A stretch of 64,000 bases of DNA from Escherichia phage DaisyDussoix, in the sequence record MZ501058. One strand, 5' to 3'. The notes beneath the pieces are model-generated. The model saw only the letters and a list, made by a program, of their open reading frames with translations, had not been told where the DNA came from and searched no databases. The position numbers and the translations under genes are program-made. This document shows, piece by piece, positions 12,711-48,256 of this stretch (its first letter is position 1; the number at the start of each line of letters is the position of its first letter).

Positions 12711-12971
12711 CTACACATCTAGCTCAACAATCTCCCAATCATCCGCTAGAGCTTCATCTAGAGTTAATTCAACCTCTTCATCACTAGGCAGCAGTGTAGT
12801 GTCTGGAGGCATCCACACGTATTGGCGTACAGTATTGCTGTCTACGTCAAACTTCAATAGTACAGTATACTCTTTATTATTTTCCCAGCTATCCCGTTGG
12901 AGATATTTTACATCTCCATCTTTAAGTAAATCAGTTAGCTTACTCACGGCGTTTTCCTTTTTCTTTATCAA
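12711..12971 (-). CDS. hypothetical protein
   Basis: ORF track 86 aa. Confidence 0.45.
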   Translation of the reverse strand: MIKKKENAVSKLTDLLKDGDVKYLQRDSWENNKEYTVLLKFDVDSNTVRQYVWMPPDTTLLPSDEEVELTLDEALADDWEIVELDV

Positions 12972-13644
12972 GTTTTAGAGCAGCCTTAACAGCTTCGTTA
13001 ATCAACGTAATAATTTCTTCACGAGTCCATTTATATCCCAGAGATTTTACATCAACCCCTAGCTTTTCCAGATGTTTAACAGAAGCCAGCTCGTAATTCA
13101 TATAGTGGACGTTCTGTTGTTTGCCTTCTGATAGAAGCCATACACGGTAACAACCAACAGGATTATCCATTGCTTTTTTGATTTCACCAATACACTGGTA
13201 TCCAGGAACCCAAACAAGCTCACCAACTGCAAATTCTTCTGCTACAGCATCATCAGGAATAATCGGAGGATTCAATGGGTCTACAATATCATTCAAACGA
13301 AGTAGAGCACCATATCGTTCCAGAACAGATTTAACCATTGCTACAGAACGGTAATTACGATCGGCAATTTCTTCAAAAGAATCACCAGATAAATACTGCT
13401 CAATAACGTTAGCTAACTCAATGCCTTCAATGAGTGTGCCACGTTTCTTTTTCTTCATCTCGGCAACTTGAATTTGGCGATCTTGCCACTCTTCTATCAT
13501 CCTTTCCATAGTTGGGTTGGATGATACGCCAAGCATTTCACATGCTGCTTTCTTAGTACCACCGTTCTCCAGATGCTCTATAACCTTTTTAAAGACTTCA
13601 TCAGGGATTTCATGGATATGTTTCTTTCTACGAGAACCGGCCAT
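12940..13644 (-). CDS. HTH-domain protein (putative regulator)
   Basis: 234 aa; N-terminal GGTKKAACEMLGVS helix-turn-helix-like segment. Confidence 0.5.
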   Translation of the reverse strand: MAGSRRKKHIHEIPDEVFKKVIEHLENGGTKKAACEMLGVSSNPTMERMIEEWQDRQIQVAEMKKKKRGTLIEGIELANVIEQYLSGDSFEEIADRNYRSVAMVKSVLERYGALLRLNDIVDPLNPPIIPDDAVAEEFAVGELVWVPGYQCIGEIKKAMDNPVGCYRVWLLSEGKQQNVHYMNYELASVKHLEKLGVDVKSLGYKWTREEIITLINEAVKAALKLDKEKGKRRE

Positions 13645-13670
13645 ATTTAAACTCCTCTCTCAAATTTATG

Positions 13671-13714
13671 AATCTATTATACAGAAAACTTTTCCTGAAA
13701 GCAAATAAATTTAT
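13671..13714 (-). promoter_or_regulatory. T5 early promoter closely resembling PN25
   Basis: rc AAATTTATTTGCTTTCAGGAAAAGTTTTCTGTATAATAGATTCATAAATTTGAGAGAGGAG. Confidence 0.7.
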
Positions 13715-14291
13715 AAATAAGCTGCTTTCAGCTTGTTATATCTATAAAGAATAGCTGGGGCGCTTTTAAATCCAAGCACTCTAGCAGTTTTTCTCCAAGA
13801 ATTGGTTTTCTGGTATGTAGATTCTATTAATTCTAAGGTTAGGGTATCGCTGGAGGGAACAGCCACAATGTATTTAAGCATAGCCTTACGCCTATAGAAT
13901 GCAGCTGCTTTAGTTATGCCCATACTTTCTAATTTCTTAATTTCTTAATTTCTACTAGGAAATCTGGATGTTCTCTCCAATTTTTATTATGAAATTTTAT
14001 TGCATTAGCTCTGTAGGTTAATACCTGCAAGTTAGATAGTCTAGGATCTAACTTATCATCATTTATATGGTCTACTACCAATTCTGATTCTAACCCAGGA
14101 AGTAGCCCAAAACAATAAGCTACTAACCTATGCACCCTCACATTTATAGGGAGGCCGTCCTTCATTAAATTAACTTGTAAGTACCCAGCAGTATTTTGAC
14201 CTGGAGTAAGAAACTTGTAGGAGAGAAAAGAGTACACCTCTCCATTTTCATTCACTGCATAGTCAGGAAATTCGGGAATTCTTATAAACAT
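13711..14291 (-). pseudogene. HNH homing endonuclease (NUMOD4/HNH + C-terminal HTH) disrupted by frameshift; two ORFs 13929..14291 and 13711..13923
   Basis: 120-aa HNH part and 70-aa HTH part align to intact 191-194 aa paralogs; junction is an 8-bp tandem repeat. Confidence 0.6.
13931..13953. repeat. 8-bp tandem repeat AATTTCTT x2.9 at HNH frameshift site
   Basis: AATTTCTTAATTTCTTAATTTCT read directly; removing one unit restores the reading frame. Confidence 0.7.
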
Positions 14292-14632
14292 TATTGTTCC
14301 TTGAGCGAAGAAGAAAGTTCAGCATATACTTTATCTAACTCAAACCCTATGCGAAGGGATACGTTAGTCCTCCGTTGTTTAAGTAACCACTCGGATATGT
14401 TAGGGATGCCAGCTAATCTGTGCGGTACCACCCTACACAGCTTTTCCGAAGTATCATAAACAGGAACTTTACGTTCTTTTACTGGAAACTTCCTTGTTTC
14501 CCATTTTTTATTCTTCACTGTCATATCTCTCCGAGGGATTAAATTCACCAAACAGCTCTTTAACTCCCCTAAGGTATAGCTGATGGGCTTCTTCCGGGGT
14601 ATCTCGTCTACCAAAAATATGCTGCTTCCCAT
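14291..14632 (-). CDS. hypothetical protein (overlaps HNH gene; true start likely internal)
   Basis: ORF track 113 aa. Confidence 0.3.
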   Translation of the reverse strand: MGSSIFLVDEIPRKKPISYTLGELKSCLVNLIPRRDMTVKNKKWETRKFPVKERKVPVYDTSEKLCRVVPHRLAGIPNISEWLLKQRRTNVSLRIGFELDKVYAELSSSLKEQ

Positions 14633-15038
14633 CGCAGTAAGCGTAGGCCATATACCTATTACCTCGTTTTACAACTCCAGTGAATCCGGTAGAATTAGTA
14701 GAACACTTCTTATTCTTTCCATTTTCGGAATAGGTAGCCTTACGTAAATTATCCCACAAGTTGTTTAAACTATCACCGTCTTTATGGTCGATAGTTTTAT
14801 CTCCAGGATCTTCGCCTGTCTTTATAAACCAGATTATTCTATGGGCTAAGTAAGCTGTCCGCTCCCCATTTATCGTAAACTCTAGCTGTCTCCCAGTTTT
14901 CATTTTGGAGCCCGCTACCTTTCCCTTCCTTGGGCCAGATAACCAAATTAAGTCCCCAGTACTTTCGTCATACCTAAGCTTTTCTAGGATAAATGCCATA
15001 GGAGGCATTGGTTTATGCGTCTTCATTAGTTGCTCCAA
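14508..15038 (-). CDS. HNH homing endonuclease (AP2-domain type)
   Basis: 176 aa; AYLAHRIIW...IDHKDGDSLNNLWDNL. Confidence 0.75.
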   Translation of the reverse strand: MEQLMKTHKPMPPMAFILEKLRYDESTGDLIWLSGPRKGKVAGSKMKTGRQLEFTINGERTAYLAHRIIWFIKTGEDPGDKTIDHKDGDSLNNLWDNLRKATYSENGKNKKCSTNSTGFTGVVKRGNRYMAYAYCDGKQHIFGRRDTPEEAHQLYLRGVKELFGEFNPSERYDSEE

Positions 15039-17919
15039 GTTCGGACAGTACTTCTTCTGCCATAGCCTTCTCTTCCTCTGTCATGAATTTGAAAGGAATT
15101 GGCATACACTCGATTTTACAATAGGTTCTGTACCAGTCTACGATATTTTCAGTGTTCATATCCTTACCAATACCCATCATACCAAGATACATTCTAGCAT
15201 ATTTTGGGTTAGCACTCTGACCTGTTTTAAGGAAGAAGTCTTTCTTCTTACCCTTCAGAGCTTCTATGAATGGTTTAATAGTTACATTTGAACACTTCTT
15301 AATATCTTCCCAGAACATCTCGTGCATCTTATGGAAGAATGCAGCTCGATCATTCGGTTTATCTTTGATATATTGTTCAACATGCTCAACTGTTACATCT
15401 TTAAAAGACTCAAGATGATAATAGCGAACAAGAAGTAGTTTAGCTTCATATGCATCTGCATGACGTGGAGCACAATAATCTGGAGTTGAATGCAGAATAG
15501 CTTTGATTCGCTCTTCCGTATATTCTTTTCCTGCACCTTCGATAGTTCCCCAGCTTTCACTGAAAATATCAATAGTTGCACCCTGATCAAGCAAATAATA
15601 ACGTAAAGTACTAGTATAGTTCCTAGATTCCAGCTCCCTACGACGTGCGTATAATTGCTGTGCTAACTCCAGCCAACCTTCATCAATGTTATATTGCTCA
15701 GAACCTGCGGAGAATCCACTCGTAGATTTATCAATAAAATAATAAATGTTCTGAGCGCCACGGTCGCGCCTGATTGCTTGGAAACGCATGTTTGGCGCTT
15801 GGTTGCTGGTTCTAGTAATAACGAATACGTTATCAAAGTAGTTGAAGTCAACGCCACTTGTTACTGATGGACTACATAATAAGCAATCAATTTGTTGGTC
15901 AATTAGCTCATTAGTTGTGTAATCCAGAATACGTCGAATATCTACATCAGACGTAGAGTTTGAGTGGATTTCCTTAACTAATGCACCAGTATTACGACGC
16001 AGTGCCATACCCTTCTCATTCAGTTCATCCGGGCCACAGTCAGATACTAGGATAGATTTCTCCCCCATCTCTAGCGAAGTCTGAAGTGCAACCCAAATAC
16101 TGGATTCATCCGGGAACTCATAAGCATGAGCTTTTGACAGCATCTTACGGTGGTGATTATAAAATGCAACCGGTTTATCAAACTCAATCAAGGAACCATA
16201 TGCTTCAATTGTTTCTGCACTAATATCACCATCTGATAATATAATGATTTTTGCAGTTGCAAGAATATCCCGAAGAACCTGAATACATTCACGACGCTGT
16301 TTAACAACCGGGGCGAATAATAGGTCATTCATTACAGCATCACATTCATCGATAAAGATTGCATCGATTTGACCAATAAAACTCTTGAACTTATGCAAAG
16401 AGTGAATAGTTGTGGACATACGGTCAATAGCGCCACGCTTAAAATTAAGCATATCTACAGACTTATCATATTGTCCTGCACTAAATTTCTTAGCATTTGA
16501 AGATACCAGTGCTCGAGTATTGGTAATTGCTAAGAAATTACCTTTAATAACTCCTGAATCTAACCAACGCACAACCGCCGTAGTTTTACCTGTACCTAGA
16601 CTTGCTTTTACAAAAGTCATATAACCTTCTGGTGGTACAGTATTTAATTTCAAGAAGTTATCAGTTTCTAGGGAATTAGTTTCTAGCTTTTTAAGTGGAA
16701 TACCTTTTAAAACATCCGGTATATCACGTTTAGAATTATTAACAAACGCTTTCAGAGCCTGTTTACGACCGTTATTAAAGTAATCTTGAATATTACGACT
16801 ATTATCTTTAGTTGCAATGTATTCTGATAAGGCTGGACGGATTTCTTTTTCTAGCCATGCGAAGTCAACACCATCCTCTAAAGCTCTGTGATAAAGTTTA
16901 GGTATGATACGTAGGTACACCCCATCCTCAGCTTCTTCTAGTTCGCTGATAGTTTCCTCTACTTTATCGGAGGCAGCTTTTTTACCTTTAATTTGATCGA
17001 GTAGAGAGTAGAATTCCTCTTTAAACTCTCCTCTAGTTGTTTCATAGTCAACCAGGTTATTAGGTAAATTTACCTTTGAGCCTTTAACAAATACCAGACG
17101 TGAAGCACCCTCCGCTTTAAACGGATCAACTATACCATCAGTAAATAAAGGATCTGCAAAATAGTGGAGCTGTACGGAAGAGTAATAAGCTAAGTCGGCA
17201 ATATCAAAGCCATACTTTTGTCTACTACTTTCGTTGATAGATGTAAATAAGAACTTGATCTGACCCTGCGTAACTTTAACATTAGATTCTAGTATTAAGT
17301 GCATTCGGATACCTGGTTTTAGGCCAGCCGAAGACGATGCATGAGCGATAAACCCTGCATCAAGAGGAAACATATCCTCGCTAATACTATTTAACATCCT
17401 AATAATATGTCGAGCCATGCCAACAAGATCAAACTTGTTACAACCTCCTGTATCTACAATACCATCCACGTCCATTGCAATTATATGACTTGGATTAGAT
17501 ACATTAAAGTTGCCCTTCTTACGTCGCACATTATTTTTGGGTGCAAGACATCGACCTCGTACCGCAACGATATGAGGGTCAGACGTTAAACGTCTCATAA
17601 GAGGGAGCATTTCTACTAGGGTTTGAGGATCAACTTCATCAATTACATCAAACTTGAAGGGCATTGAAGCTGGTTTACCTTCAGGATGCTTTGAGGAAAA
17701 TCTTTTAGCAAAAAGATAGTCTTCTGCTTTAACTTCTCGCCAATTGCCTGTGGCTAAATCGCGATGAAATCCTGCATGACCTTGTAGGATTGAGAACACA
17801 ACAATACTCCTGTATTGGAAATGAAATAAGTTTTCTTTAGGACTATTCAGAAAGAATAGAACAACTGTTACTGTCAATTTCTCAACAATTAATCGCAAAT
17901 ACTGAAGGGGGGGTGGCAA
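15013..17919 (-). CDS. large SF2-type ATPase/helicase, putative replication origin-binding protein (likely true start ATG at 17664)
   Basis: Walker A SLGTGKTT, Walker B IFIDECD; track start is TTG with odd 85-aa N-terminal extension. Confidence 0.65.
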   Translation of the reverse strand: MPPPLQYLRLIVEKLTVTVVLFFLNSPKENLFHFQYRSIVVFSILQGHAGFHRDLATGNWREVKAEDYLFAKRFSSKHPEGKPASMPFKFDVIDEVDPQTLVEMLPLMRRLTSDPHIVAVRGRCLAPKNNVRRKKGNFNVSNPSHIIAMDVDGIVDTGGCNKFDLVGMARHIIRMLNSISEDMFPLDAGFIAHASSSAGLKPGIRMHLILESNVKVTQGQIKFLFTSINESSRQKYGFDIADLAYYSSVQLHYFADPLFTDGIVDPFKAEGASRLVFVKGSKVNLPNNLVDYETTRGEFKEEFYSLLDQIKGKKAASDKVEETISELEEAEDGVYLRIIPKLYHRALEDGVDFAWLEKEIRPALSEYIATKDNSRNIQDYFNNGRKQALKAFVNNSKRDIPDVLKGIPLKKLETNSLETDNFLKLNTVPPEGYMTFVKASLGTGKTTAVVRWLDSGVIKGNFLAITNTRALVSSNAKKFSAGQYDKSVDMLNFKRGAIDRMSTTIHSLHKFKSFIGQIDAIFIDECDAVMNDLLFAPVVKQRRECIQVLRDILATAKIIILSDGDISAETIEAYGSLIEFDKPVAFYNHHRKMLSKAHAYEFPDESSIWVALQTSLEMGEKSILVSDCGPDELNEKGMALRRNTGALVKEIHSNSTSDVDIRRILDYTTNELIDQQIDCLLCSPSVTSGVDFNYFDNVFVITRTSNQAPNMRFQAIRRDRGAQNIYYFIDKSTSGFSAGSEQYNIDEGWLELAQQLYARRRELESRNYTSTLRYYLLDQGATIDIFSESWGTIEGAGKEYTEERIKAILHSTPDYCAPRHADAYEAKLLLVRYYHLESFKDVTVEHVEQYIKDKPNDRAAFFHKMHEMFWEDIKKCSNVTIKPFIEALKGKKKDFFLKTGQSANPKYARMYLGMMGIGKDMNTENIVDWYRTYCKIECMPIPFKFMTEEEKAMAEEVLSELGATNEDA

Positions 17920-40026: not shown

Positions 40027-40103
40027 GGGGGTGTAATCGAATTGGCATAGGTACTGGACTTAAAATTCAGGTTTTGTGGGTTCGAATCCCACCACCCCTA
40101 CCA
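40027..40103 (+). tRNA. tRNA, apparent anticodon UAA (Leu-like) with short variable arm (atypical)
   Basis: acceptor GGGGGUG/CACCCCU, anticodon loop CUUAAAA, T-loop UUCGAAU, CCA; D-arm unclear. Confidence 0.45.
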
Positions 40104-40278
40104 AATTAAGGAAATAAGATGTATAGACCTCCACCTCCGCCAACACGTCGTTCTAGAGAAGTTATCCTCATGGAATTGACTAAAAACTTCAAGGCAACTC
40201 TTGAAGATAGAGATTTAGGCACGGATGAAGACATTGATTTTATTTGTAGACTATTAAAGATGAAACTGGAGAAACAAC

Positions 40279-40485
40279 ATGGCTAATCCTGAAATTACCG
40301 CACAACGTTTCATGCTTAAAGGCATGATTGCTGAAGCAGGTATGACTCAAGAGGTTGCAGACTTTCATAAGCAAATTCTTGATATTATAACCCTAGCTAA
40401 AGAGACTGGAGAAAAAGAGCACGCAGCAGCAATTATGGCTATATCTCTTATTAGTCTAGACTTGGCTGAAGAATCTGGAGTTTAG
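40279..40485 (+). CDS. hypothetical small protein
   Basis: ORF track 68 aa. Confidence 0.4.
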   Translation: MANPEITAQRFMLKGMIAEAGMTQEVADFHKQILDIITLAKETGEKEHAAAIMAISLISLDLAEESGV

Positions 40486-40505
40486 CTCCTCCAAATAGAA
40501 TTTTT

Positions 40506-40550
40506 AAAAATGTACTTGCCTTTTGCTTTAAATTTCTGATATAATAGTTA
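40506..40550 (+). promoter_or_regulatory. T5-type sigma70 promoter
   Basis: AAAAATGTACTTGCCT-N18-TATAAT. Confidence 0.5.
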
Positions 40551-40575
40551 TATAAATTGATGAAGGAGTTAACTA

Positions 40576-40851
40576 ATGCAAAATCGTGTTATAGCAACTG
40601 GTATTGAAAGTGCAATCTGTAAATCCTGGGAAGGCTGGGAAGGTGAGATTGAATGGCTTTATTTCTACGATGTAGAACTTCTGCCGGAAGTTAAAGCTAA
40701 ATGTGTTGAAGCTGGAATGGCTCCAGATGCAAAAGCTGATATTGATATTTCAATGTCTGAACTTAAAGGCCGTGTAATTACTGTTAGTGATGAGGGTGAA
40801 GAAGTTTTCGAACTTCCATTCTCCTTAACTGTCACTCCTAAGTTCGACTAA
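40576..40851 (+). CDS. hypothetical acidic protein
   Basis: AAGGAG RBS; 91 aa. Confidence 0.45.
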   Translation: MQNRVIATGIESAICKSWEGWEGEIEWLYFYDVELLPEVKAKCVEAGMAPDAKADIDISMSELKGRVITVSDEGEEVFELPFSLTVTPKFD

Positions 40852-40877
40852 CTAATACAGCACTGAGCAAGTTCTTT

Positions 40878-40920
40878 AAAATTTGACTTGCTCAGTGCCT
40901 TAAAACTTGGTATAATAGTT
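40878..40920 (+). promoter_or_regulatory. T5-type sigma70 promoter for tRNA operon
   Basis: TTGACTTGCTC-N17-TATAAT. Confidence 0.5.
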
Positions 40921-40932
40921 ATCTAATTTGGA

Positions 40933-40982
40933 AACATATTTAAAAGTGTTTAAACTAGTATTTTAGTACTTTTAAATATGTT
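40933..40982 (+). repeat. 15-bp perfect inverted repeat with 20-nt spacer between promoter and tRNA-Tyr
   Basis: AACATATTTAAAAGT ... ACTTTTAAATATGTT. Confidence 0.6.
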
Positions 40983-41059
40983 GGATTAGTATCGTAGAGG
41001 TAGCGAAGCAGACTGTAAATCTGCCGACTCGGGTGGTTCGACTCCATCATCCAACACCA
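40980..41059 (+). tRNA. tRNA-Tyr (anticodon GUA)
   Basis: acceptor GUUGGAU/AUCCAAC, anticodon stem GCAGA/UCUGC loop CUGUAAA, CCA. Confidence 0.55.
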
Positions 41060-41066
41060 AATTTAA

Positions 41067-41143
41067 GTCCTGTTAGACAAACTGGTAAAGTCACTACCCT
41101 TTCAAGGTAGGATTTGCGGGTTCGATCCCCGCACAGGACGCCA
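41067..41143 (+). tRNA. tRNA-Glu (anticodon UUC)
   Basis: acceptor GUCCUGU/ACAGGAC, anticodon stem CUACC/GGUAG loop CUUUCAA, T-loop UUCGAUC, CCA. Confidence 0.65.
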
Positions 41144-41152
41144 ATTTCTGCA

Positions 41153-41228
41153 TTCCTAGAGTGTTACTGGACAGCATGTCGGTCTCCAAAACCGTACGGT
41201 CTAGGTTCGAGTCCTAGTAGGTTTGCCA
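41153..41228 (+). tRNA. tRNA-like gene, possible Trp (anticodon CCA); acceptor pairing poor
   Basis: T-arm CUAGG-UUCGAGU-CCUAG, anticodon loop CUCCAAA, CCA end; 5' acceptor strand not resolved. Confidence 0.35.
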
Positions 41229-41234
41229 AAATTT

Positions 41235-41309
41235 GCACCTTTAGCTGAGATGGATTAGCGCTTGCCTGAAGAGCTTGAGAGGTTCGTTCGATACGAACAG
41301 GGTGCACCA
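41235..41309 (+). tRNA. tRNA, probable Phe (anticodon GAA)
   Basis: acceptor GCACCUU/AGGGUGC, T-arm GUUCG-UUCGAUA-CGAAC, loop CUGAAGA, CCA. Confidence 0.45.
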
Positions 41310-41311
41310 AA

Positions 41312-41599
41312 TTGAAGGAGCTGCTGATGCATCCTGAAAACTTCTTTATTTACTGCGCGGATAAGTCGCTGAAACGTAGAATTAACAAAGTCTATCATTA
41401 TCGTGCTAGTCAACAGCCTTATGTATACGCTTTTGACGGTAATCACATTCCATTAGAACAATTATCCTGTGATTACATGATATTGAAGAACTTTGACGAG
41501 ACAAAGATCTCAAGCGTTCACAATCGACAGAATCCATTAACGTGGAAACATAAGAAGAAAAAGAAAGGTATCAAATTCTTAAAAAATGTAGTTGCTTAG
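41312..41599 (+). CDS. hypothetical protein (likely start ATG 41327)
   Basis: AAGGAG RBS before MHPENFF; 3' end carries next promoter. Confidence 0.4.
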   Translation: MKELLMHPENFFIYCADKSLKRRINKVYHYRASQQPYVYAFDGNHIPLEQLSCDYMILKNFDETKISSVHNRQNPLTWKHKKKKKGIKFLKNVVA

Positions 41600-41625
41600 T
41601 TTCCAAAAGTTCTGTATAATAATTA
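41582..41625 (+). promoter_or_regulatory. T5-type sigma70 promoter
   Basis: AAAAATGTAGTTGCTT-N17-TATAAT. Confidence 0.55.
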
Positions 41626-41667
41626 CATAAATTGAACTGGAGAAGCAACATGACAGAACAAGATAAA

Positions 41668-41743
41668 CCGACCGTTGGCTGAATGGCTTAGGCGAAGGAT
41701 TGCAAATCCTTTTTATGTGAGTTCAAATCTCATGCGGTCGTCC
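41668..41743 (+). tRNA. tRNA-Cys (anticodon GCA)
   Basis: acceptor CGACCGU/GCGGUCG, anticodon stem AAGGA/UCCUU loop UUGCAAA, T-loop UUCAAAU, CCA. Confidence 0.6.
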
Positions 41744-41765
41744 AAATTACTAAAGGAAAGAAGTA

Positions 41766-42284
41766 GTGCATACAAAAGTTTTTGATAGTTTGGTAAAGAA
41801 AGGCGTTGTTACTAATGAGCCCTTCTGTATAACCGCAGAACTAATCCAAAGATTTATGGAAGAATATATAAATCTTTCAGGAACCAATGGTAACACCAAA
41901 AAGAATACAAATACTATGTATTCGAGAAAACTTGCTGCACTTTCCTTTATAAAGTTTAAGCAGGAAAATAAACTTCCTATTTCTGAAGGTTTTGTATACT
42001 GTATTAGTAATCCTGCATGGAAAAATCAGTATAAAATAGGTATGAGTCAAAATCCGAAGGAGAGATTAGCTCAATATCAGACTTATTCCCCTTATAGGGA
42101 TTATAAGTTAGAGCATTGGTCTTTTTGGTTTGACAAACGAAAAGGTGAAAAACTAATTCACCAGTATTTCAAAGATTTAAAAGAACATGAGTGGTTTAGT
42201 ATAAATTCTAGGGATCTTAGTAAATATCTAGGACGTATTAACTCTAGTTCTGACTTATATGGTTCCTTAGCTCTAATTGGTTAG
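41766..42284 (+). CDS. T5orf172-domain protein (GIY-YIG-like nuclease superfamily)
   Basis: 172 aa; GFVYCISNPAWKNQYKIGMSQNPKERLAQY core; 3' end overlaps tRNA-Asn start. Confidence 0.65.
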   Translation: MHTKVFDSLVKKGVVTNEPFCITAELIQRFMEEYINLSGTNGNTKKNTNTMYSRKLAALSFIKFKQENKLPISEGFVYCISNPAWKNQYKIGMSQNPKERLAQYQTYSPYRDYKLEHWSFWFDKRKGEKLIHQYFKDLKEHEWFSINSRDLSKYLGRINSSSDLYGSLALIG

Positions 42285-42338
42285 AGCGGCATCTTGTTAA
42301 GTTGAGGGTTGCTGGTTCGAATCCAGCAGGAACCGCCA
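42261..42338 (+). tRNA. tRNA-Asn (anticodon GUU)
   Basis: acceptor GGUUCCU/AGGAACC perfect, D-stem GCUC/GAGC, loop UUGUUAA, T-loop UUCGAAU, CCA. Confidence 0.55.
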
Positions 42339-42440
42339 AATTCTGTGTAGAGTTAAGTAAACCGGTAGCCAACCAGCTATCATTGCTGACATCGAATTCA
42401 GCCACAGATACCATTTTCATTAATAACTGAGGAAACAAGC

Positions 42441-42626
42441 ATGTCCAAGAATGTGATTGCGCAGCTAGAAGTTCATCGTGATAGCACTATCAACAACATT
42501 GAAGTTGAAAAGAAATACATCGAAGAACTTAAACATGATATACTAGTAAGTCTCAACCGTCTTAATGTACGAAAAGAGTTTCTTAAAGAACTTAATGCAG
42601 CTATTGAAAAACTCAAAGCTGAGTAA
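42441..42626 (+). CDS. hypothetical coiled-coil mini-protein
   Basis: ORF track 61 aa; GAGGAAA RBS. Confidence 0.4.
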   Translation: MSKNVIAQLEVHRDSTINNIEVEKKYIEELKHDILVSLNRLNVRKEFLKELNAAIEKLKAE

Positions 42627-42635
42627 ATAAATTAT

Positions 42636-42712
42636 GCGACCGGGGCTGGCTTGGTAATGGTACTCCCCTGTCACGGGAGGGAATGTGGGTTCAAATCCCA
42701 TCGGTCGCGCCA
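42636..42712 (+). tRNA. tRNA-Asp (anticodon GUC)
   Basis: acceptor GCGACCG/CGGUCGC perfect, anticodon stem CUCCC/GGGAG loop CUGUCAC, T-loop UUCAAAU, CCA. Confidence 0.7.
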
Positions 42713-42737
42713 AATTAATTTAGTATGAGAATATACT

Positions 42738-43085
42738 ATGCGTAATGCAAAAGAAGAGCTGTTACTTGCCTTAAAAAATACTAATTCTGAAGTTAAATGT
42801 ATTAAAATAGAATTCGGGTATTATGGGGATAAAAAAGTTTGGGTATTGCCTTTAGGTTACACAGAAGAAGATATTGAGGATTTTCTTAATAACCTAGACT
42901 TTAAATATGACTCTGGATATGGTGGACAATTACTTTATGGTAATGTATGGTTTGCCGATGGAACTTGGTTAGAACGTGGTGAATATGATGGTTCTGAATG
43001 GTGGGAATATAAGGCTACACCAGCAATCCCAGAAGAATGCCGAACAATTAATGGTGAAGTAGATAATACTTTACGGTTAAACTAA
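42738..43085 (+). CDS. hypothetical protein
   Basis: ORF track 115 aa. Confidence 0.45.
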   Translation: MRNAKEELLLALKNTNSEVKCIKIEFGYYGDKKVWVLPLGYTEEDIEDFLNNLDFKYDSGYGGQLLYGNVWFADGTWLERGEYDGSEWWEYKATPAIPEECRTINGEVDNTLRLN

Positions 43086-43089
43086 TAAA

Positions 43090-43460
43090 ATTTCAGTGCA
43101 GAACACGGAGCTAGCAATTAGGAAGTGCTGACTCATGATAAGCTGCCTATGTACTTGCAAAGCGGTCGTGTCCAAGACTCGGACTCTTGCACTGAAAACA
43201 ATCAAACATTCTAGCGTGGTTGATGGGGAAACCAGCTTGGCTAGGGCAGAAGCTCGTTCGATTCGAGTGAAAGAATGGTTCTCGTAAGTCCGCACAAGTG
43301 ATAATAGGTTCGAGTCCTGTCTAGAATGACACTATAAAGTTTACTTATTATGTAGGTTCCGATAGATCGGAGGGTCTATTCTGGCATTTAAGAGAGGTCT
43401 CGCAAACGTCTTTGTCAGCCGTGGGGTTGGTAGCCTCCAGGTGGCCTACACAATAAGTAA
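43090..43460 (+). ncRNA. candidate structured stable RNAs (ORF-free), including a 121-nt tRNA-like element 43208..43328
   Basis: long-range stems UUCAGUGCA/UGCACUGAA (43092-43100 / 43188-43196) and AUUCUAG/CUAGAAU closing a T-arm (AUAGG-UUCGAGU-CCUGU). Confidence 0.35.
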
Positions 43461-43467
43461 ATTTATT

Positions 43468-43510
43468 AAAAATTCATTTGCTATTCTGCTTTATTATCTG
43501 TATAATATAT
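43468..43510 (+). promoter_or_regulatory. T5-type sigma70 promoter
   Basis: AAAAATTCATTTGCTA-N17-TATAAT. Confidence 0.6.
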
Positions 43511-43538
43511 TTTATAAAGTGAAGAGAAGGAAAGCTAA

Positions 43539-44114
43539 ATGGAAGGATTTAAGCCAATACCCGAGTATCCAGAATACTTAGTATCTGAGAAGGGAGAAAT
43601 ATACTCTACTATCAGTAATAAATATCTAAAACCTACTATAAACGGAAAAGGCTATTACCACTTTGCAGTACGTGAAGATACTAATAAGTATAAATGGCTC
43701 CAGCTGCACAGAGTCATATGCAGAGTTTATGGCAATCTCCCCTCTTTAGATAGTGAAATGGAAGTAGATCATAATGATCGTAATAAGCTTAATATACTCC
43801 CTAGTAATTTAGTTGCCAGAGAGAAGAAAGATCATTATGATAAAACTACACTGGAGAGAGGAAAAACTATAGGGGGCACTAGATGTATAGTCTGTAATAA
43901 GAGGATACACTCTGGTCGAGAATACTGTATAAATTGCAGCCCAGTTAAACAGACTAAATCTCCAGAGATTACCGCAGAACAGATAGAATATTGGGTATCA
44001 AAGTATTCCTGGACTAGAGCTGCAAAAGAGTTAAATTTATCTGATAATGGTCTACGAAAACGGTATACTAAATTAACAGGTAAATCCCCAAAAGAAATTA
44101 AAAAATCAGGGTAA
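43539..44114 (+). CDS. HNH homing endonuclease (NUMOD4/HNH + C-terminal HTH type)
   Basis: 191 aa; HRVICRVYG...EVDHNDRNKLNILPSNL; C-terminal RAAKELNLSDNGLRKRY HTH. Confidence 0.75.
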   Translation: MEGFKPIPEYPEYLVSEKGEIYSTISNKYLKPTINGKGYYHFAVREDTNKYKWLQLHRVICRVYGNLPSLDSEMEVDHNDRNKLNILPSNLVAREKKDHYDKTTLERGKTIGGTRCIVCNKRIHSGREYCINCSPVKQTKSPEITAEQIEYWVSKYSWTRAAKELNLSDNGLRKRYTKLTGKSPKEIKKSG

Positions 44115-44184
44115 GGGCGATAAGGTACGCCACCTCGTTTGGGGTGAGGAAATCTTTAGAGTTCGAGTCCTGCCGCACTGACCA
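44107..44184 (+). tRNA. tRNA-like gene, possible Pro (anticodon UGG); acceptor/T-stem imperfect
   Basis: anticodon stem CCUCG/UGAGG loop UUUGGGG, D-stem GGCG/CGCC, T-loop UUCGAGU, CCA; several mismatches. Confidence 0.35.
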
Positions 44185-44190
44185 AACAAC

Positions 44191-44268
44191 TGCGGGTTAG
44201 ATCTCTGGTAGAGATCGCTAGTCTCATAAGCTAGAAAGAGGTAGGTTCGATTCCTGCACCCGCTTCCA
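44191..44268 (+). tRNA. tRNA with CAU anticodon (Met or Ile-lysidine)
   Basis: D-stem GAUC/GAUC, anticodon stem CUAGU/GCUAG loop CUCAUAA, T-loop UUCGAUU, CCA. Confidence 0.55.
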
Positions 44269-44288
44269 CTTTAATAGAGGATTTCGAA

Positions 44289-44456
44289 ATGAAAGTATTT
44301 CGATTAGTAGTAAGTGACAAACGTTTAGGTAATAATACATCAAAATCCTTACTCGCTCATTACGGTAAAAATTGGGATGAAGTAATGGCAGAGTTTAGTA
44401 CTAATCACCCTTACTTGAAAGTTCACTCTATTAAAGAAGTGTACAATGGTTACTAA
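44289..44456 (+). CDS. hypothetical small protein (55 aa; below track cutoff)
   Basis: AGAGGA RBS then ATG; MKVFRLVVSDKRLGNN... Confidence 0.3.
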   Translation: MKVFRLVVSDKRLGNNTSKSLLAHYGKNWDEVMAEFSTNHPYLKVHSIKEVYNGY

Positions 44457-44457
44457 T

Positions 44458-44536
44458 AGATCGCTAGCTCAATAGGTTTAGTAGCATCCGACTTTTAATC
44501 GGAAGGTTCTGGGTTCGAGTCCCAGGCGATCTACCA
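44458..44536 (+). tRNA. tRNA-Lys (anticodon UUU)
   Basis: acceptor AGAUCGC/GCGAUCU perfect, anticodon stem UCCGA/UCGGA loop CUUUUAA, T-arm CUGGG-UUCGAGU-CCCAG, CCA. Confidence 0.65.
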
Positions 44537-44540
44537 AATT

Positions 44541-44614
44541 GCTCGGTTAGTTTAATGGGAGAACCCCGTCTTTACACGGCGGTTGAGATAGTTCAATTCT
44601 ATCACCGAGTACCA
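44541..44614 (+). tRNA. tRNA-Val (anticodon UAC)
   Basis: acceptor GCUCGGU/ACCGAGU, anticodon stem CCGUC/GGCGG loop UUUACAC, T-arm GAUAG-UUCAAUU-CUAUC, CCA. Confidence 0.6.
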
Positions 44615-44633
44615 ATTAACTCAAAATAAGGAA

Positions 44634-44993
44634 TTGCAAATGCAATTATCAAGCAAGATTCAAGGTTATTTCGGTCATGTAACAATGGAGTTCGCTATCT
44701 CTAAAGGTTGGGACTTCGAACAAGATTTAGCTGAGTTCTACAAAGATATTGATCTGAACGTACCATACATGGGACTTTCTACTGGTCAGGAGATCACAGA
44801 AGCCGATGTATTCAAGGCAAGTCAAGGTGAGGTAACACCTAGTTTTGCCGAGTTCTGGTTAGGCATTACGTTAAAAGAAGATGCACCAGATAGTGGTGTA
44901 CTAATGTCTAGTATGCACTCTGGAAGTTCCGATTACCTTTTCATTAGCGATGTTAAGGAAATACAAGAAGTCTGCAAAAATGTACTTGCTTGA
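44634..44993 (+). CDS. hypothetical protein
   Basis: ORF track 119 aa; next promoter sits in its 3' end. Confidence 0.45.
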   Translation: MQMQLSSKIQGYFGHVTMEFAISKGWDFEQDLAEFYKDIDLNVPYMGLSTGQEITEADVFKASQGEVTPSFAEFWLGITLKEDAPDSGVLMSSMHSGSSDYLFISDVKEIQEVCKNVLA

Positions 44994-45018
44994 TGCTTAA
45001 TTTCTTGTTATAATATTT
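44976..45018 (+). promoter_or_regulatory. T5-type sigma70 promoter
   Basis: AAAAATGTACTTGCTT-N17-TATAAT. Confidence 0.55.
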
Positions 45019-45029
45019 ATATAAATTGA

Positions 45030-45252
45030 TGGGGAGAAATCCTCATCATAGTTCACTAAGGTATTAGCTCGACCTAGGACTGGCTGCCAAAAAGCACGAT
45101 CCCTACAATTCGGGAGAAGTTCTAGATTAGTCCACTAGATTCAGCGGCAACTGAATAGTGTATCGGGTTTGCGAGATGACGCAGTTCCTTCCGCTCGAAG
45201 CGAAGGTGCTGTAGTTACGCCGAGCTAATAGCCTTAGTAAACTAAATAATTT
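45030..45252 (+). ncRNA. candidate structured leader / small RNA (ORF-free, hairpin-rich) ahead of tRNA-Ala
   Basis: hairpins GAUGGGG..CCUCAUC, UUCAG..CUGAA, CCUUCCGCUCGAAGCGAAGG. Confidence 0.25.
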
Positions 45253-45327
45253 GGGCGAATAGTGTCAGCGGGAGCACACCAGACTTGCAATCTGGTAGGG
45301 AGGGTTCGAGTCCCTCTTTGTCCACCA
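45253..45327 (+). tRNA. tRNA-Ala (anticodon UGC)
   Basis: acceptor GGGCGAA/UUUGUCC (G-U pairs), anticodon stem CCAGA/UCUGG loop CUUGCAA, T-arm GAGGG-UUCGAGU-CCCUC, CCA. Confidence 0.65.
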
Positions 45328-45332
45328 AATTC

Positions 45333-45417
45333 GGGGCTATGCTGGAACTGGTAGACAATACGGCCTTAGATTCCGTAGCTTAAATGCGTGGGAGTTCGAG
45401 TCTCCCTAGCCCCACCA
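45333..45417 (+). tRNA. tRNA-Leu (anticodon UAG), type II
   Basis: acceptor GGGGCUA/UAGCCCC perfect, loop CUUAGAU, long variable arm, T-arm GGGAG-UUCGAGU-CUCCC, CCA. Confidence 0.6.
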
Positions 45418-45434
45418 ACTCATAGGATTTATGT

Positions 45435-46019
45435 ATGCAGTTTGTACCAATAAAAGATGCACCAGGGTATTTAGTAAATGAGGCGGGGGATGTGTTCTCT
45501 ACATTTACTAATAAAGTTTTATCAAGATATATAGTTGATGGATACCCTGCTGTAAAATTACAGATAAATGGTAAACAAACCTCTGTACTTATACACCGAA
45601 TTATTTCTCATGTATTTGGGGACTTATATAATCTATTTGACCCTGAACTAGAGGTAGATCATAAGGATAGAGATAGACTGAATCTATCTAAAGATAATCT
45701 TCAAGTCCTATCAAAAATAGAACATCAGAGGAAAACTAATAAAGATAATGGGTGGTCTGACAGTAGAGTACCTTGCCCCCTATGTGGGAGTCTAATGCTT
45801 CAGAGATCTGTAACATGTACAAATTGTAAGCCAAAACCTACAGGAAGGTTGATAAAACCAGAATTGTCTTTAGACGACATAACTGAAAAGGTTTTATTAA
45901 TGGGGTGGGTTAAGGCAGCTAAAGAGTTAGAAGTATCAGAGTCCACTTTGCGCAGGAGGTATACTAAACTAACTGGATTAAGCCCAAAAGTATTAACAGA
46001 ACAATGGAAAAGCAAGTAG
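45435..46019 (+). CDS. HNH homing endonuclease (NUMOD4/HNH + HTH type)
   Basis: 194 aa; HRIISHVFG...EVDHKDRDRLNLSKDNL; C-terminal HTH. Confidence 0.75.
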   Translation: MQFVPIKDAPGYLVNEAGDVFSTFTNKVLSRYIVDGYPAVKLQINGKQTSVLIHRIISHVFGDLYNLFDPELEVDHKDRDRLNLSKDNLQVLSKIEHQRKTNKDNGWSDSRVPCPLCGSLMLQRSVTCTNCKPKPTGRLIKPELSLDDITEKVLLMGWVKAAKELEVSESTLRRRYTKLTGLSPKVLTEQWKSK

Positions 46020-46097
46020 ACTGGCGACTAAACCCGATTGGAAAGTGGCTGACTTGTGAAAGCAGGCTTGAGAGTTCGAATCTCTCTTCTTCCGCCA
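46006..46097 (+). tRNA. tRNA-like gene, probably type II (anticodon unresolved)
   Basis: T-arm GAGAG-UUCGAAU-CUCUC, 3' UUCUUCC-G-CCA; 5' strand GGAAAAG pairs 6/7. Confidence 0.35.
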
Positions 46098-46120
46098 AAC
46101 AATAGAAGATAGGACGTAGT

Positions 46121-46195
46121 GGTACGTAACCGGTCTTGAAAACCGGCCCGCTGTAGTGATACGGTGTAAGGGTTCGATCCCCTTACCTACCTCCA
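46121..46195 (+). tRNA. tRNA (anticodon unresolved)
   Basis: acceptor GGUACGU/ACCUACC (6/7), D-stem CCGG/CCGG, T-arm AAGGG-UUCGAUC-CCCUU, CCA. Confidence 0.45.
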
Positions 46196-46561
46196 AATCT
46201 TGAAGTATGCCGAAATCGGTAGACGGGGCTGCCTAAAAGGTTTATAGGGAACATCCACTCCCTACAACATACCTCATAAAGCGGCTGAGATAAATGGTCT
46301 ATCTCGTGAAGGTTCAAGTCCTTCTGCTTCTTGATACATCTATGGCTCAAAGTGTAACGGTGCTATTTGATGCTCTTGGTAAGACTTCCCCGACATGCGT
46401 TCGGGAGTAAGCTGCTAAGACTAGAGTAGAAGAGTTTCTGAGAGCCGCCACAATTGAAAATTCGTACTCGTCTTGAGCTGCGCGCAATAGGAGATAACTT
46501 GATTAGTATTCTAGAACATGCTAATTGAGGAAGGTTTCGCTAACCCTGCGAGTTTTCAATT
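46196..46561 (+). ncRNA. candidate structured RNA region (ORF-free) with 18-bp imperfect inverted repeat
   Basis: IR arms 46447-46464 (GCCACAATTGAAAATTCG) and 46549-46566 (CGAGTTTTCAATTGTGGC); T-arm-like hairpins without acceptor stems. Confidence 0.3.
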
Positions 46562-46638
46562 GTGGCTATATCATAATTGGTTAATGATCCTGATTGTGAA
46601 TCAGGCCTATGTGGATTCGAATTCCACTAGCCACCCCA
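46562..46638 (+). tRNA. tRNA-His (anticodon GUG)
   Basis: acceptor GUGGCUA/UAGCCAC perfect, anticodon stem CCUGA/UCAGG loop UUGUGAA, T-arm GUGGA-UUCGAAU-UCCAC, CCA. Confidence 0.65.
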
Positions 46639-46668
46639 AATTAACTTAACTTAAATAGGAAATAAAAT

Positions 46669-46863
46669 ATGGCTGATTTCTGCAAACAATGCTCCATTGA
46701 TATGTGGGGCAGAGATACTGGTGATCTTTCTGGTTTGATTACAGAAGCTGAGGTCAAAGAAGGTTATGGTGCAGTTGTGATTTGCGAAGGATGCGGAGTT
46801 ATTCGAGTAGATCATGAAGGCAAACGTTTAGAAGAATCTGAGCCAACAACAATTTTTCCGTAG
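46669..46863 (+). CDS. Cys-rich zinc-ribbon-like mini-protein
   Basis: CKQC ... CEGCG; 64 aa. Confidence 0.4.
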   Translation: MADFCKQCSIDMWGRDTGDLSGLITEAEVKEGYGAVVICEGCGVIRVDHEGKRLEESEPTTIFP

Positions 46864-46869
46864 AATAAG

Positions 46870-47451
46870 ATGAAATTAGAGAATTTCAAAGTAATTCCTG
46901 AGTATCCAGAATACTTAATCTCTCCATACGGAGAGGTTTACTCTACCAAGAGTAATAAATTACTTACACATCATTTAGGCAGTGCGGGATACCTGTTTGT
47001 AACGTTCTATGAACAGGGTAAAAATGTTTCTGTTGTACTGCATAGATTATTGGCTAGAGTATTTAAAGATTTACCTTCGCTAGAATCTGAACTAGAGGTG
47101 GATCACAAAGATAGGAATAAATTGAACTTTGCCCTGGATAATCTAGTTGTCATGACCAAGGAAGATCACAGAGTAAAAACTACACTTGAAAGAGGACATA
47201 TAATAGGTGGTAACAAGTGCCCTTATTGTAGTAAACAAATAAATTCTTCAGCTAAAACTTGTTTTGATTGTAAACCTAAGAGTAACCCTGCTATTACAGC
47301 AGAGCAAATAGAATATTGGGTAATAAATTATTCGTGGGTTAAAGCATCAAAAGAGCTGGGACTATCTGATAATGGTCTACGTAAACGTTATAAATCCTTA
47401 ACAGGTAAAGATCCAAAAAGTATTAAGAAGAAGGTTAGCCAAGTCGGTTAA
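46870..47451 (+). CDS. HNH homing endonuclease (NUMOD4/HNH + HTH type)
   Basis: 193 aa; HRLLARVF...EVDHKDRNKLNFALDNL; 3' end overlaps tRNA-Gln start. Confidence 0.75.
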   Translation: MKLENFKVIPEYPEYLISPYGEVYSTKSNKLLTHHLGSAGYLFVTFYEQGKNVSVVLHRLLARVFKDLPSLESELEVDHKDRNKLNFALDNLVVMTKEDHRVKTTLERGHIIGGNKCPYCSKQINSSAKTCFDCKPKSNPAITAEQIEYWVINYSWVKASKELGLSDNGLRKRYKSLTGKDPKSIKKKVSQVG

Positions 47452-47504
47452 GGCTGGGGTCTCTGAAATCCTGATCAGTGGTTCAAATCCACTACTTTCT
47501 GCCA
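47429..47504 (+). tRNA. tRNA-Gln (anticodon CUG)
   Basis: acceptor AGAAGGU/ACUUUCU, loop CUCUGAA, T-arm AGUGG-UUCAAAU-CCACU, CCA. Confidence 0.55.
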
Positions 47505-47510
47505 AACAAT

Positions 47511-47588
47511 TGGGGATTAGCTTAGCTTGGCCTAAAGCTTCGGCCTTTGAAGTCGAGATCATTGGTTCAAATCCAATATCCCCTGCCA
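47511..47588 (+). tRNA. tRNA-Gln (anticodon UUG)
   Basis: anticodon stem UCGGC/GUCGA loop CUUUGAA, T-arm AUUGG-UUCAAAU-CCAAU, CCA. Confidence 0.5.
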
Positions 47589-47599
47589 GCCAAATTAAT

Positions 47600-47674: not shown

Positions 47675-47688
47675 AATAAGGAAACACT

Positions 47689-48182: not shown

Positions 48183-48187
48183 AATTT

Positions 48188-48230: not shown

Positions 48231-48256
48231 ATATAAATTAATGAGAGGGAAACCAA

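What the first reader, a model, noticed from the sequence alone, without database searches (positions are those of the whole stretch)
13711..14291. HNH homing endonuclease broken by an 8-bp tandem duplication (slippage-prone repeat)
ORFs 13929..14291 (NUMOD4/HNH part) and 13711..13923 (C-terminal HTH part) together match the intact 191-194 aa paralogs at 43539, 45435 and 46870. The junction is AATTTCTT repeated 2.9 times (13931-13953). Deleting one 8-bp unit fuses the frames (...EIKKL-ES-MGITKAAAF...). This is either a recent pseudogenisation or a slippage-controlled ON/OFF switch of a selfish nuclease.
Basis: seen in the sequence. Interest (0 to 1): 0.55.

Follow-up and report, generated by a model that had tools for sequence, protein, structure and literature searches.

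The report
Freshly frameshifted phage homing endonuclease gene
A selfish HNH homing-endonuclease gene in the T5-like phage DaisyDussoix (Bas31) is split into two reading frames by an extra copy of an 8-base repeat found in no other known copy of the gene, so this is an ordinary, recent gene inactivation and not a built-in on/off switch.

Summary
On the minus strand, 14291..13711 carries a 581-nt HNH homing-endonuclease gene (HEG) split into a 120-aa ORF and a 70-aa ORF. The break is three perfect tandem copies of AGAAATTA (13930-13953). Removing one unit gives a 190-aa protein.

The window is Escherichia phage DaisyDussoix (Bas31). GenBank already lists the two pieces as separate CDSs.

- Every orthologue found is intact at 573 nt / 190 aa and sits at the same locus. 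That covers 12 nucleotide copies and 27 protein sequences.
- The closest allele (VAH1) has exactly two repeat units.
- The repeat is degenerate or absent in 5 of the 8 other alleles.
- No copy number other than this one was seen anywhere.
- There is no slippery site, no stimulatory RNA fold, and no Shine-Dalgarno before the 70-aa ORF.
- The downstream half shows no more private change than the intact VAH1 gene.

Best reading: a recent 2-to-3 copy replication-slippage duplication, private to this lineage, has inactivated a free-standing I-HmuI-type HEG. This is the first step of the known HEG degeneration cycle. A phase-variable switch is not supported. A sequencing artefact cannot be excluded without the reads. 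Interest is low.

The parts
13711..14291 (-). Whole disrupted free-standing HNH homing-endonuclease gene (581 nt; 573 nt / 190 aa once one 8-bp unit is removed)
   Evidence: ORFs. In-silico repair. Alignment to six intact 573-nt orthologues. Pfam HNH_3 at 33.3 bits against a cut-off of 24.8. PHROG 59 'HNH endonuclease', E 3e-27.
13929..14291 (-). 5' ORF, 120 aa (GenBank QXV77253.1 'putative homing endonuclease'). It holds the N-terminal beta-sheet (NUMOD4-like), the HNH motif with D74-H75...N87...N96, and two following helices. It ends ...EIKKLRN*.
   Evidence: I-HmuI (1u3e) aligns over residues 10-97, E 4.9e-9. Foldseek top hit is 1u3e, E 9e-8. Model secondary structure.
13711..13923 (-). 3' ORF, 70 aa (GenBank QXV77252.1, bas31_0046, 'hypothetical protein'). 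It corresponds to residues 121-190 of the intact protein: a helix, a low-confidence linker and a three-helix HTH-like domain. Its ATG is an ancestral internal Met codon 5 nt after the new stop, with no Shine-Dalgarno.
   Evidence: hhalign to the paralogues' C-terminal HTH region. Anti-SD duplex energy -1.4 kcal/mol, against a median of -5.7 for 39 long ORFs and -1.5 for all ATGs.
13930..13953 (-). Three perfect tandem copies of AGAAATTA (followed by partial GAAA at 13926-13929). One copy is extra relative to every orthologue and causes the frameshift.
13713..14290 (-). Extent of the HEG insertion relative to phage T5, which lacks this gene.
   Evidence: T5 aligns to window 12906-13712 and 14291-16899 only. 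Three-way alignment.
14291..14524 (-). Upstream 77-aa gene (homologue of T5.110, PHROG 5291). Its stop overlaps the HEG start (TAATG), so the HEG is probably read from the upstream transcript.
   Evidence: Sequence. Annotated orthologues. PHROG hit.
13676..13704 (-). D2 promoter (equivalent to T5 promoter P-N25: TTGCTT, 17 nt, TATAAT). It begins 6 nt after the HEG stop codon and is left intact by the insertion.
   Evidence: T5 annotation. Alignment. Sequence.

Best explanation
This is a free-standing HNH homing-endonuclease gene of the I-HmuI architectural type. It has an N-terminal beta-sheet, an HNH catalytic motif, linker helices and a C-terminal helix-turn-helix. It sits between the T5.110 homologue and the D2 promoter of a T5-like phage.

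In the DaisyDussoix (Bas31) lineage, a pre-existing two-copy direct repeat, AGAAATTA-AGAAATTA, encodes part of E-I-K-K-L. It gained a third copy, most likely by slipped-strand mispairing during replication or recombinational repair. This step is inferred.

The +8 bp shifts the frame and stops translation after residue 118 plus two foreign residues (shown). The product keeps the catalytic motif but has lost the last linker helix and the HTH domain. In this enzyme class that domain supplies much of the DNA binding (inferred from I-HmuI). The downstream 70-aa frame has no ribosome-binding site, so at best it is made at low level by termination-reinitiation (inferred).

The event is recent and non-programmed. 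It matches the expected first step of HEG degeneration once the element has no empty target sites left in its own population.
For: 1. Exact protein look-up identifies the window as phage DaisyDussoix. The 120-aa and 70-aa forms each occur on one contig only.
2. Six GenBank phages (VAH1, JLBYU43, RN29, SuperGirl, SB13, SB9) carry one uninterrupted 573-nt CDS at the same locus. The only length difference is the 8-bp unit.
3. Six further Logan/ENA contigs are also 573 nt at the same locus. The 25-member cluster of 190-aa proteins, plus P0002 and VAH1's protein, are all intact.
4. The closest allele, VAH1, differs at 3 of the first 338 nt and has exactly two perfect units, which is the substrate for a 2-to-3 slip.
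5. Bas31 has 1 private non-synonymous nucleotide change in the N-part and 5 in the C-part (4 codons), plus 1 synonymous change in the C-part. The intact VAH1 gene shows the same counts, so there is no extra decay after the break.
6. Domain assignment: HNH_3 above the Pfam cut-off. I-HmuI is the only significant PDB relative by sequence and by fold. The break falls at the end of helix 109-120, between the catalytic domain and the HTH at 150-189.
7. The gene is present in only 6 distinct phages among about 460 T5-like records that match the flanks. It has clean boundaries against T5 and is found in both Tequintavirus and Epseptimavirus, which is typical HEG behaviour.
8. HEG presence/absence is the main source of local differences among T5-like genomes (PMC10644984). 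The degeneration cycle and a defunct phage HEG (T4 I-TevIII) are established (PMC2988022).
Against: - Only one assembly of this phage exists, with no reads available here, so the extra unit could be an assembly error or a stock-specific mutation.
- No biochemical data exist for this HEG family, so loss of activity of the 120-aa product is inferred and not shown.
- The catalytic residues are all retained in the 120-aa fragment.
- An ATG lies 5 nt after the new stop, so some residual or two-piece activity is conceivable.
- 'Recent' rests on small counts of substitutions.
Confidence: 0.8

Rival explanations
1. Slip-strand phase variation: the 8-bp tract is a contingency repeat that toggles the nuclease ON (2 units) and OFF (3 units) at high frequency within phage populations.
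For: The break is a perfect tandem repeat. Loss of one unit restores the frame exactly. Three units slip back more easily than two units slip forward (general knowledge of slipped-strand mispairing).
Against: - There are only 3 units.
- All 12 other nucleotide copies have the same 573-nt length, and none has 1 or 4 units.
- All 27 other protein sequences are 190 aa.
- The tract is imperfect (AGAGATTA or AGAAGTTA as first unit) or absent in 5 of the 8 other alleles, so it is not a conserved feature.
- The 3-unit junction is absent from IMG/VR. No form of the junction is found in IMG/VR or the JGI metagenomes.
Confidence: 0.04
2. Sequencing or assembly artefact: the real phage has two units and an intact gene.
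For: There is a single record and no independent assembly. Every relative is intact.
Against: BASEL genomes were assembled from Illumina NextSeq reads at typically 50-100x coverage (PMC8594841). To my knowledge, an exact 8-bp tandem duplication in non-homopolymer sequence is not a usual Illumina or assembler error.
Confidence: 0.06
3. The split gene still works. Either the 120-aa catalytic fragment acts as a nuclease with relaxed or altered specificity, or it reassociates with a separately translated 70-aa HTH peptide as a two-piece enzyme.
For: - D74, H75, N87 and N96 and the N-terminal DNA-contacting sheet are all in the 120-aa ORF.
- The break lies in the inter-domain linker region.
- The 70-aa ORF is intact and starts at an ATG 5 nt after the stop, which allows termination-reinitiation.
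Against: - There is no Shine-Dalgarno before the 70-aa ORF: -1.4 kcal/mol, the same as random ATGs.
- The arrangement occurs in a single genome, so nothing shows selection for it.
- That ATG is an ancestral internal Met codon present in the intact orthologues; the most divergent allele has Leu there.
- The predicted model shows no contact-rich interface between the domains, only a low-confidence linker at 135-145.
Confidence: 0.08
4. Programmed recoding: ribosomes shift -1 (or +2) within the repeat to make the full-length protein from the 3-unit allele.
For: The two frames overlap by only about 13 nt inside an A/T-rich repeat.
Against: - There is no X XXY YYZ slippery heptamer in the permitted interval between the TAA in the downstream frame and the TAG in the upstream frame (sequence).
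- There is no homopolymer run for transcriptional slippage.
- The downstream RNA folds no better than shuffles (z -0.39).
- The arrangement is not conserved in any orthologue.
Confidence: 0.01

Closest known systems
I-HmuI (Bacillus phage SPO1 intron-encoded HNH homing/nicking endonuclease, PDB 1U3E)
   Same: It is the only significant solved relative by sequence (E 4.9e-9, residues 10-97) and by fold (Foldseek E 9e-8, 121 columns). The order of parts is the same: N-terminal sheet, HNH motif with D-H...N...N, helices, C-terminal HTH.
   Different: 28% identity. The gene is free-standing, not intron-encoded. In the window the gene is cut between the catalytic part and the HTH. Cleavage chemistry and target are untested.
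[quoted passage not shown]
   Same: Same phage group and the same NUMOD4/HNH_3 N-terminal half: 46% identity, E 2e-23. The profile alignment is colinear, including the C-terminal HTH. The paralogues sit in the tRNA cluster, as described for the F-Tfl genes (PMC2330249).
   Different: The paralogues carry a CxxC...CxxC zinc ribbon in the middle, where this gene has helices instead. The C-terminal 70 aa alone have no BLASTP similarity. The genomic site differs (replication-gene region). I did not verify which paralogue equals which F-Tfl enzyme.
Degenerate homing endonuclease genes in the HEG life cycle, e.g. the defunct I-TevIII ORF of phage T4
   Same: A phage HNH HEG is inactivated in one lineage while an intact orthologue persists in relatives (PMC2988022). 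This fits the invasion, fixation and degeneration scheme.
   Different: T4 I-TevIII lost a large segment. Here the lesion is a single, precisely reversible 8-bp duplication with no further decay, so it is at a much earlier stage.
Simple-sequence contingency loci (phase variation by repeat slippage)
   Same: A frameshift is caused by a change in copy number of a short tandem repeat inside a coding region.
   Different: Only 3 units are present. The tract is not conserved among orthologues and shows no copy-number polymorphism beyond this one genome.

Membership tests
HNH (His-Me finger) homing endonuclease, I-HmuI-like architecture | HNH catalytic domain recognised above the curated threshold | tested here: met
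   Pfam HNH_3 at 33.3 bits against a cut-off of 24.8, residues 52-97. PHROG 59 and 959 'HNH endonuclease'.
HNH (His-Me finger) homing endonuclease, I-HmuI-like architecture | Catalytic and metal-binding residues (D-H ... N ... N) present and aligned to a solved enzyme | tested here: met
   In the hmmsearch alignment to 1u3e, VVDH (D74, H75), N87 and N96 align with I-HmuI's VVDH, N and N. These positions are invariant in 18 orthologues.
HNH (His-Me finger) homing endonuclease, I-HmuI-like architecture | N-terminal NUMOD4 DNA-binding module | tested here: inconclusive
   NUMOD4 scores 20.5 bits, below the cut-off of 23.4. The model has the beta strands, and the I-HmuI alignment starts at residue 10.
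HNH (His-Me finger) homing endonuclease, I-HmuI-like architecture | C-terminal helix-turn-helix DNA-binding domain | tested here: inconclusive
   A three-helix bundle at 150-189 is predicted with pLDDT 77-90. It aligns with the paralogues' HTH region in hhalign. There is no Pfam or PHROG hit for the 70-aa part alone, and the Foldseek match to 1u3e covers 121 columns only.
HNH (His-Me finger) homing endonuclease, I-HmuI-like architecture | Sporadic presence/absence at a fixed site in otherwise syntenic genomes | tested here: met
   The gene is present in 6 distinct phages (11 records) of 463 records that match the flanks. It is always between the 77-aa gene and D2, and it spans two genera. The boundary against T5 is clean.
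HNH (His-Me finger) homing endonuclease, I-HmuI-like architecture | Site-specific cleavage or nicking of the HEG-less allele and biased inheritance in crosses | not testable with these tools
   This requires enzyme assays and phage co-infections.
HNH (His-Me finger) homing endonuclease, I-HmuI-like architecture | Uninterrupted reading frame | tested here: not met
   The window copy is split into 120 aa and 70 aa by the extra 8 bp. It is therefore a disrupted member of the family.
Phase-variable contingency locus (repeat slippage switch) | Repeat-number polymorphism among strains or isolates | tested here: not met
   All 12 other nucleotide copies are 573 nt. All 27 other proteins are 190 aa. 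No 1-unit or 4-unit allele was found.
Phase-variable contingency locus (repeat slippage switch) | The repeat tract is conserved as a feature of the gene | tested here: not met
   A perfect two-unit tract occurs only in VAH1, SuperGirl and SB13. It is imperfect in JLBYU43, RN29, SB9, L025 and L026, and absent in L027-L030.
Phase-variable contingency locus (repeat slippage switch) | Length heterogeneity within one population | not testable with these tools
   No sequencing reads are available. There is no second assembly of this phage.
Programmed ribosomal frameshift | Slippery site plus stimulatory element, conserved among homologues | tested here: not met
   There is no slippery heptamer in the overlap. 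The downstream fold has z -0.39. The frameshift is absent from all orthologues.
Recent pseudogene | Disruption relative to intact orthologues, with little or no secondary decay | tested here: met
   The single 8-bp insertion is the only frame-disrupting difference. Private substitutions downstream of the break (4 non-synonymous codons and 1 synonymous change) equal those of the intact VAH1 gene.

The most novel reading that the evidence does not exclude
The three-unit tract reverts to two units often enough that every Bas31 lysate carries a minority of nuclease-ON genomes. The selfish gene would then stay silent, and harmless, in clonal growth, yet be rescued by homing whenever the phage meets a HEG-less relative. 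That would be a slippage-based bet-hedging switch for a homing endonuclease.
Probability: 0.04. Interest if true: 0.55.

Novelty: new member of a known kind. Interest (0 to 1): 0.13.

Why it matters
It matters little beyond annotation. The two GenBank CDSs of phage DaisyDussoix (QXV77253.1 and bas31_0046) should be read as one frameshifted homing-endonuclease gene. The case gives a cleanly dated example of the earliest step of HEG degeneration in a T5-like phage.

It has some practical use. Bas31 (broken allele), SuperGirl/Bas29 (intact allele, same BASEL collection) and T5 (no HEG at this site) form a ready-made trio. They could be used to test whether this uncharacterised HEG family homes, and what its C-terminal HTH contributes.

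Tried and rejected
- A search for the 3-unit junction in IMG/VR found nothing. Searches for any form of the junction in IMG/VR and the JGI metagenomes also found nothing.
- The search for related loci in IMG/VR returned only distant HNH relatives (31-49% identity). The scan of one genome per species returned nothing. Neither helped with copy number.
- Exact look-up of the 120-aa product on assemblies found nothing on record, so there is no independent assembly.
- I tested for relaxed selection after the break and rejected it: the intact VAH1 gene shows the same pattern.
- I considered programmed frameshifting or transcriptional slippage and rejected it: no slippery site, no homopolymer, no structured RNA.
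- I considered a gene on the opposite strand. The 87-aa ORF at 14196..14459 (+) has a stop codon in 5 of 6 relatives. There is no Rfam match in 12800-15300.
- The consensus promoter scan did not pick up the D2 promoter, because TTGCTT matches only 3 of 6 positions of TTGACA. I located it through the T5 annotation instead.

Full report
**What is in the sequence**

On the minus strand, an ATG at 14291 opens a 120-aa ORF that ends at a TAG (13931-13929). Five bases later, an ATG at 13923 opens a 70-aa ORF that ends at 13711. Between them lies a tandem array. TRF reports 13926-13953, period 8, 3.6 copies. Read as AGAAATTA there are three perfect copies at 13930-13953, followed by GAAA. This is the only short tandem array with three or more copies in the 64-kb window. 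Removing one unit gives a 573-nt ORF of 190 aa reading ...HPDFLVEIKKLESMGITKAAAF....

**Where the window comes from**

Exact protein look-up shows that the two ORF products are QXV77253.1 ('putative homing endonuclease') and QXV77252.1 (bas31_0046, 'hypothetical protein'). Both belong to Escherichia phage DaisyDussoix (Bas31), a T5-like phage of the BASEL collection. Each is known from that single 113.5-kb contig. BASEL genomes were assembled from Illumina NextSeq reads at typically 50-100x (PMC8594841).

**Orthologues**

- Megablast and blastn against about 50,700 phage records find this gene in only six distinct phages: VAH1, JLBYU43, RN29, SuperGirl (Bas29), SB13 and SB9. Together with RefSeq duplicates that makes 11 records.
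- By contrast, 463 T5-like records match the flanks.
- In all six, one uninterrupted 573-nt CDS lies between a 77-aa gene and D2.
- The alignment shows a single length difference: the window has one extra 8-bp unit.
- The 5.8-billion-protein search adds a 25-member cluster of 190-aa proteins and a more distant 190-aa form, P0002 (81% identity). The 120-aa protein occurs only in DaisyDussoix.
- Six further Logan/ENA contigs carry 573-nt copies in the same gene order.
- In total, every one of 12 other nucleotide copies (8 alleles) and 27 other protein sequences is intact.

**The repeat as a feature**

VAH1, SuperGirl and SB13 have two perfect units. In JLBYU43, RN29 and SB9 the first unit is AGAGATTA. 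In L025 and L026 it is AGAAGTTA. The most divergent allele (L027-L030) has no repeat at all. The repeat is therefore an incidental consequence of coding for E-I-K-K-L-E in some alleles and is not a conserved device. VAH1, the closest allele, differs at 3 of the first 338 nt and carries exactly the two-unit substrate. No allele with one or four units was found. The three-unit junction is absent from IMG/VR, and no form of the junction was found in IMG/VR or the JGI metagenomes.

**What the gene is**

- The repaired protein matches Pfam HNH_3 above threshold (33.3 bits against 24.8, residues 52-97). It matches NUMOD4 just below threshold (20.5 against 23.4). It also matches PHROG 59 'HNH endonuclease' (E 3e-27).
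- A profile of 18 orthologues finds one significant solved relative, the homing/nicking endonuclease I-HmuI (1u3e, E 4.9e-9). The VVDH, N87 and N96 positions align.
- An AlphaFold model of orthologue P0001 (90% identical; the repaired window protein itself was not accepted) has mean pLDDT 81. It shows a confident beta-rich catalytic domain (1-106), helices at 109-120 and 124-136, a low-confidence linker (135-145) and a three-helix bundle at 150-189.
- Foldseek again puts I-HmuI first (E 9e-8).
- The frameshift falls at residue 118/119, at the end of the helix 109-120. The 120-aa product therefore keeps the whole catalytic part and loses the third helix and the HTH-like domain.

[quoted passage not shown] Their N-terminal halves match (46% identity, E 2e-23). 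The 70-aa part alone gives no BLASTP alignment. The paralogues have a CxxC...CxxC zinc ribbon where this gene has helices. A profile-profile comparison is nevertheless colinear over residues 2-187, including the C-terminal HTH (probability 99.4%). The claim that 'the two halves match one paralogue' is therefore true for architecture, weak for the C-terminal sequence, and not needed once the orthologues are in hand.

**Genomic setting**

- Against T5, the gene is a clean 578-bp insertion (window 13713-14290).
- Its ATG overlaps the stop of the upstream 77-aa gene (TAATG).
- Its own stop lies 6 nt before the -35 hexamer of the D2 promoter (T5 P-N25), which is left intact.
- The gene occurs in both Tequintavirus and Epseptimavirus, in E. 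coli and Salmonella phages, always at this site. This is the pattern expected of a homing endonuclease gene.
- HEGs are reported as the main source of local differences among T5-like genomes (PMC10644984).

**Tests of the rival readings**

*Switch.* This fails three defining features of contingency loci: tract length, conservation of the tract, and inter-isolate polymorphism. Within-stock heterogeneity could not be tested.

*Recoding.* The interval in which a ribosome would have to shift lies between the TAA of the downstream frame and the TAG of the upstream frame. It is about 13 nt long and holds no X XXY YYZ heptamer and no homopolymer. The downstream RNA folds no better than shuffles (z -0.39). 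No orthologue shares the arrangement.

*Two-piece enzyme.* The 70-aa ORF has no Shine-Dalgarno. Its duplex energy is -1.4 kcal/mol, against a median of -5.7 for 39 long ORFs and -1.5 for all ATGs in the window. Its ATG is simply the ancestral Met121 codon. Low-level termination-reinitiation remains possible.

*Further decay.* Bas31 has one private non-synonymous change upstream of the break. Downstream it has four private non-synonymous codons and one synonymous change. The intact VAH1 gene shows exactly the same counts. The C-terminal part simply evolves faster, and the break has left no detectable trace of relaxed selection. It is therefore recent on the scale of allele divergence.

*Opposite strand and RNA.* The 87-aa plus-strand ORF is broken in five of six relatives. 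No Rfam family matches.

**Conclusion**

The most likely history is as follows. A free-standing I-HmuI-type HEG was already resident at this site. It suffered a 2-to-3 copy slippage duplication of an 8-bp direct repeat in the Bas31 lineage, or in its laboratory stock. That truncated the enzyme between its catalytic and C-terminal DNA-binding parts.

- Shown: the duplication, its uniqueness, the intactness of all relatives, the domain position of the break, and the absence of recoding signals.
- Inferred: the slippage mechanism, the loss of activity, and the lack of selection to keep the gene once no empty sites remain in the population. The last point follows the HEG life cycle; compare the defunct T4 I-TevIII (PMC2988022).

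An assembly artefact cannot be excluded without reads, but it would be an unusual error type. The finding is real but ordinary: a new, very young example of a known process. Its main practical consequence is an annotation correction.

Noticed in passing
window 14508-15038 (-), block 14529-15022: A second HNH gene, the homologue of T5 hegI (HNH_3 at 47.5 bits), lies just upstream of the 77-aa gene. T5 and its close relatives have hegI but not the broken HEG. The six HEG-bearing phages lack hegI. No record in the phage collection covers both, so Bas31 appears to be the only sampled genome with the two HEGs about 230 bp apart.
   Followed up: partly
window 13711-14528 (-): There is a mosaic boundary inside the HEG. 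Bas31 and VAH1 differ at 3 of the first 338 nt of the gene but at 28 of the last 219 nt. The breakpoint interval (gene nt 232-393) contains the repeat. In the last 100 nt, Bas31 is closest to SuperGirl. This may be a coincidence, since the interval is 28% of the gene. Alternatively the duplication may have arisen during recombinational repair. HEGs at exchange boundaries are discussed in PMC10448857.
   Followed up: partly
window 13676-13713 (-): The HEG stop codon lies 6 nt upstream of the -35 hexamer of the D2 promoter (equivalent to the strong T5 promoter P-N25). The insertion therefore replaces the A/T-rich sequence upstream of the promoter found in T5. Any effect on promoter strength is unknown.
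   Followed up: no
window 43539-44114, 45435-46019, 46870-47451 (+): Three intact paralogous NUMOD4/HNH_3 genes, each with a central CxxC...CxxC zinc ribbon and a C-terminal HTH, are interspersed among 21 tRNA genes (40027-48811). [quoted passage not shown] The correspondence was not checked.
   Followed up: partly
window 12940-13644 (-): The D2 protein (234 aa) is variously annotated in relatives as 'helicase', 'D2 protein' or 'hypothetical'. It gives only weak helix-turn-helix Pfam matches (HTH_28 at 22.1 bits, below cut-off) and no helicase domain, so the 'helicase' label looks doubtful.
   Followed up: no
window 14291-14632 (-): The mechanical 113-aa ORF overlaps the 3' end of hegI by 125 nt. 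Comparison with relatives and PHROG 5291 (match to residues 39-113) indicates that the real gene is the 77-aa ORF starting at 14524.
   Followed up: yes
window 14196-14459 (+): An 87-aa ORF lies antisense to the HEG start. It is interrupted by a stop codon in 5 of 6 relatives and is therefore not a gene.
   Followed up: yes
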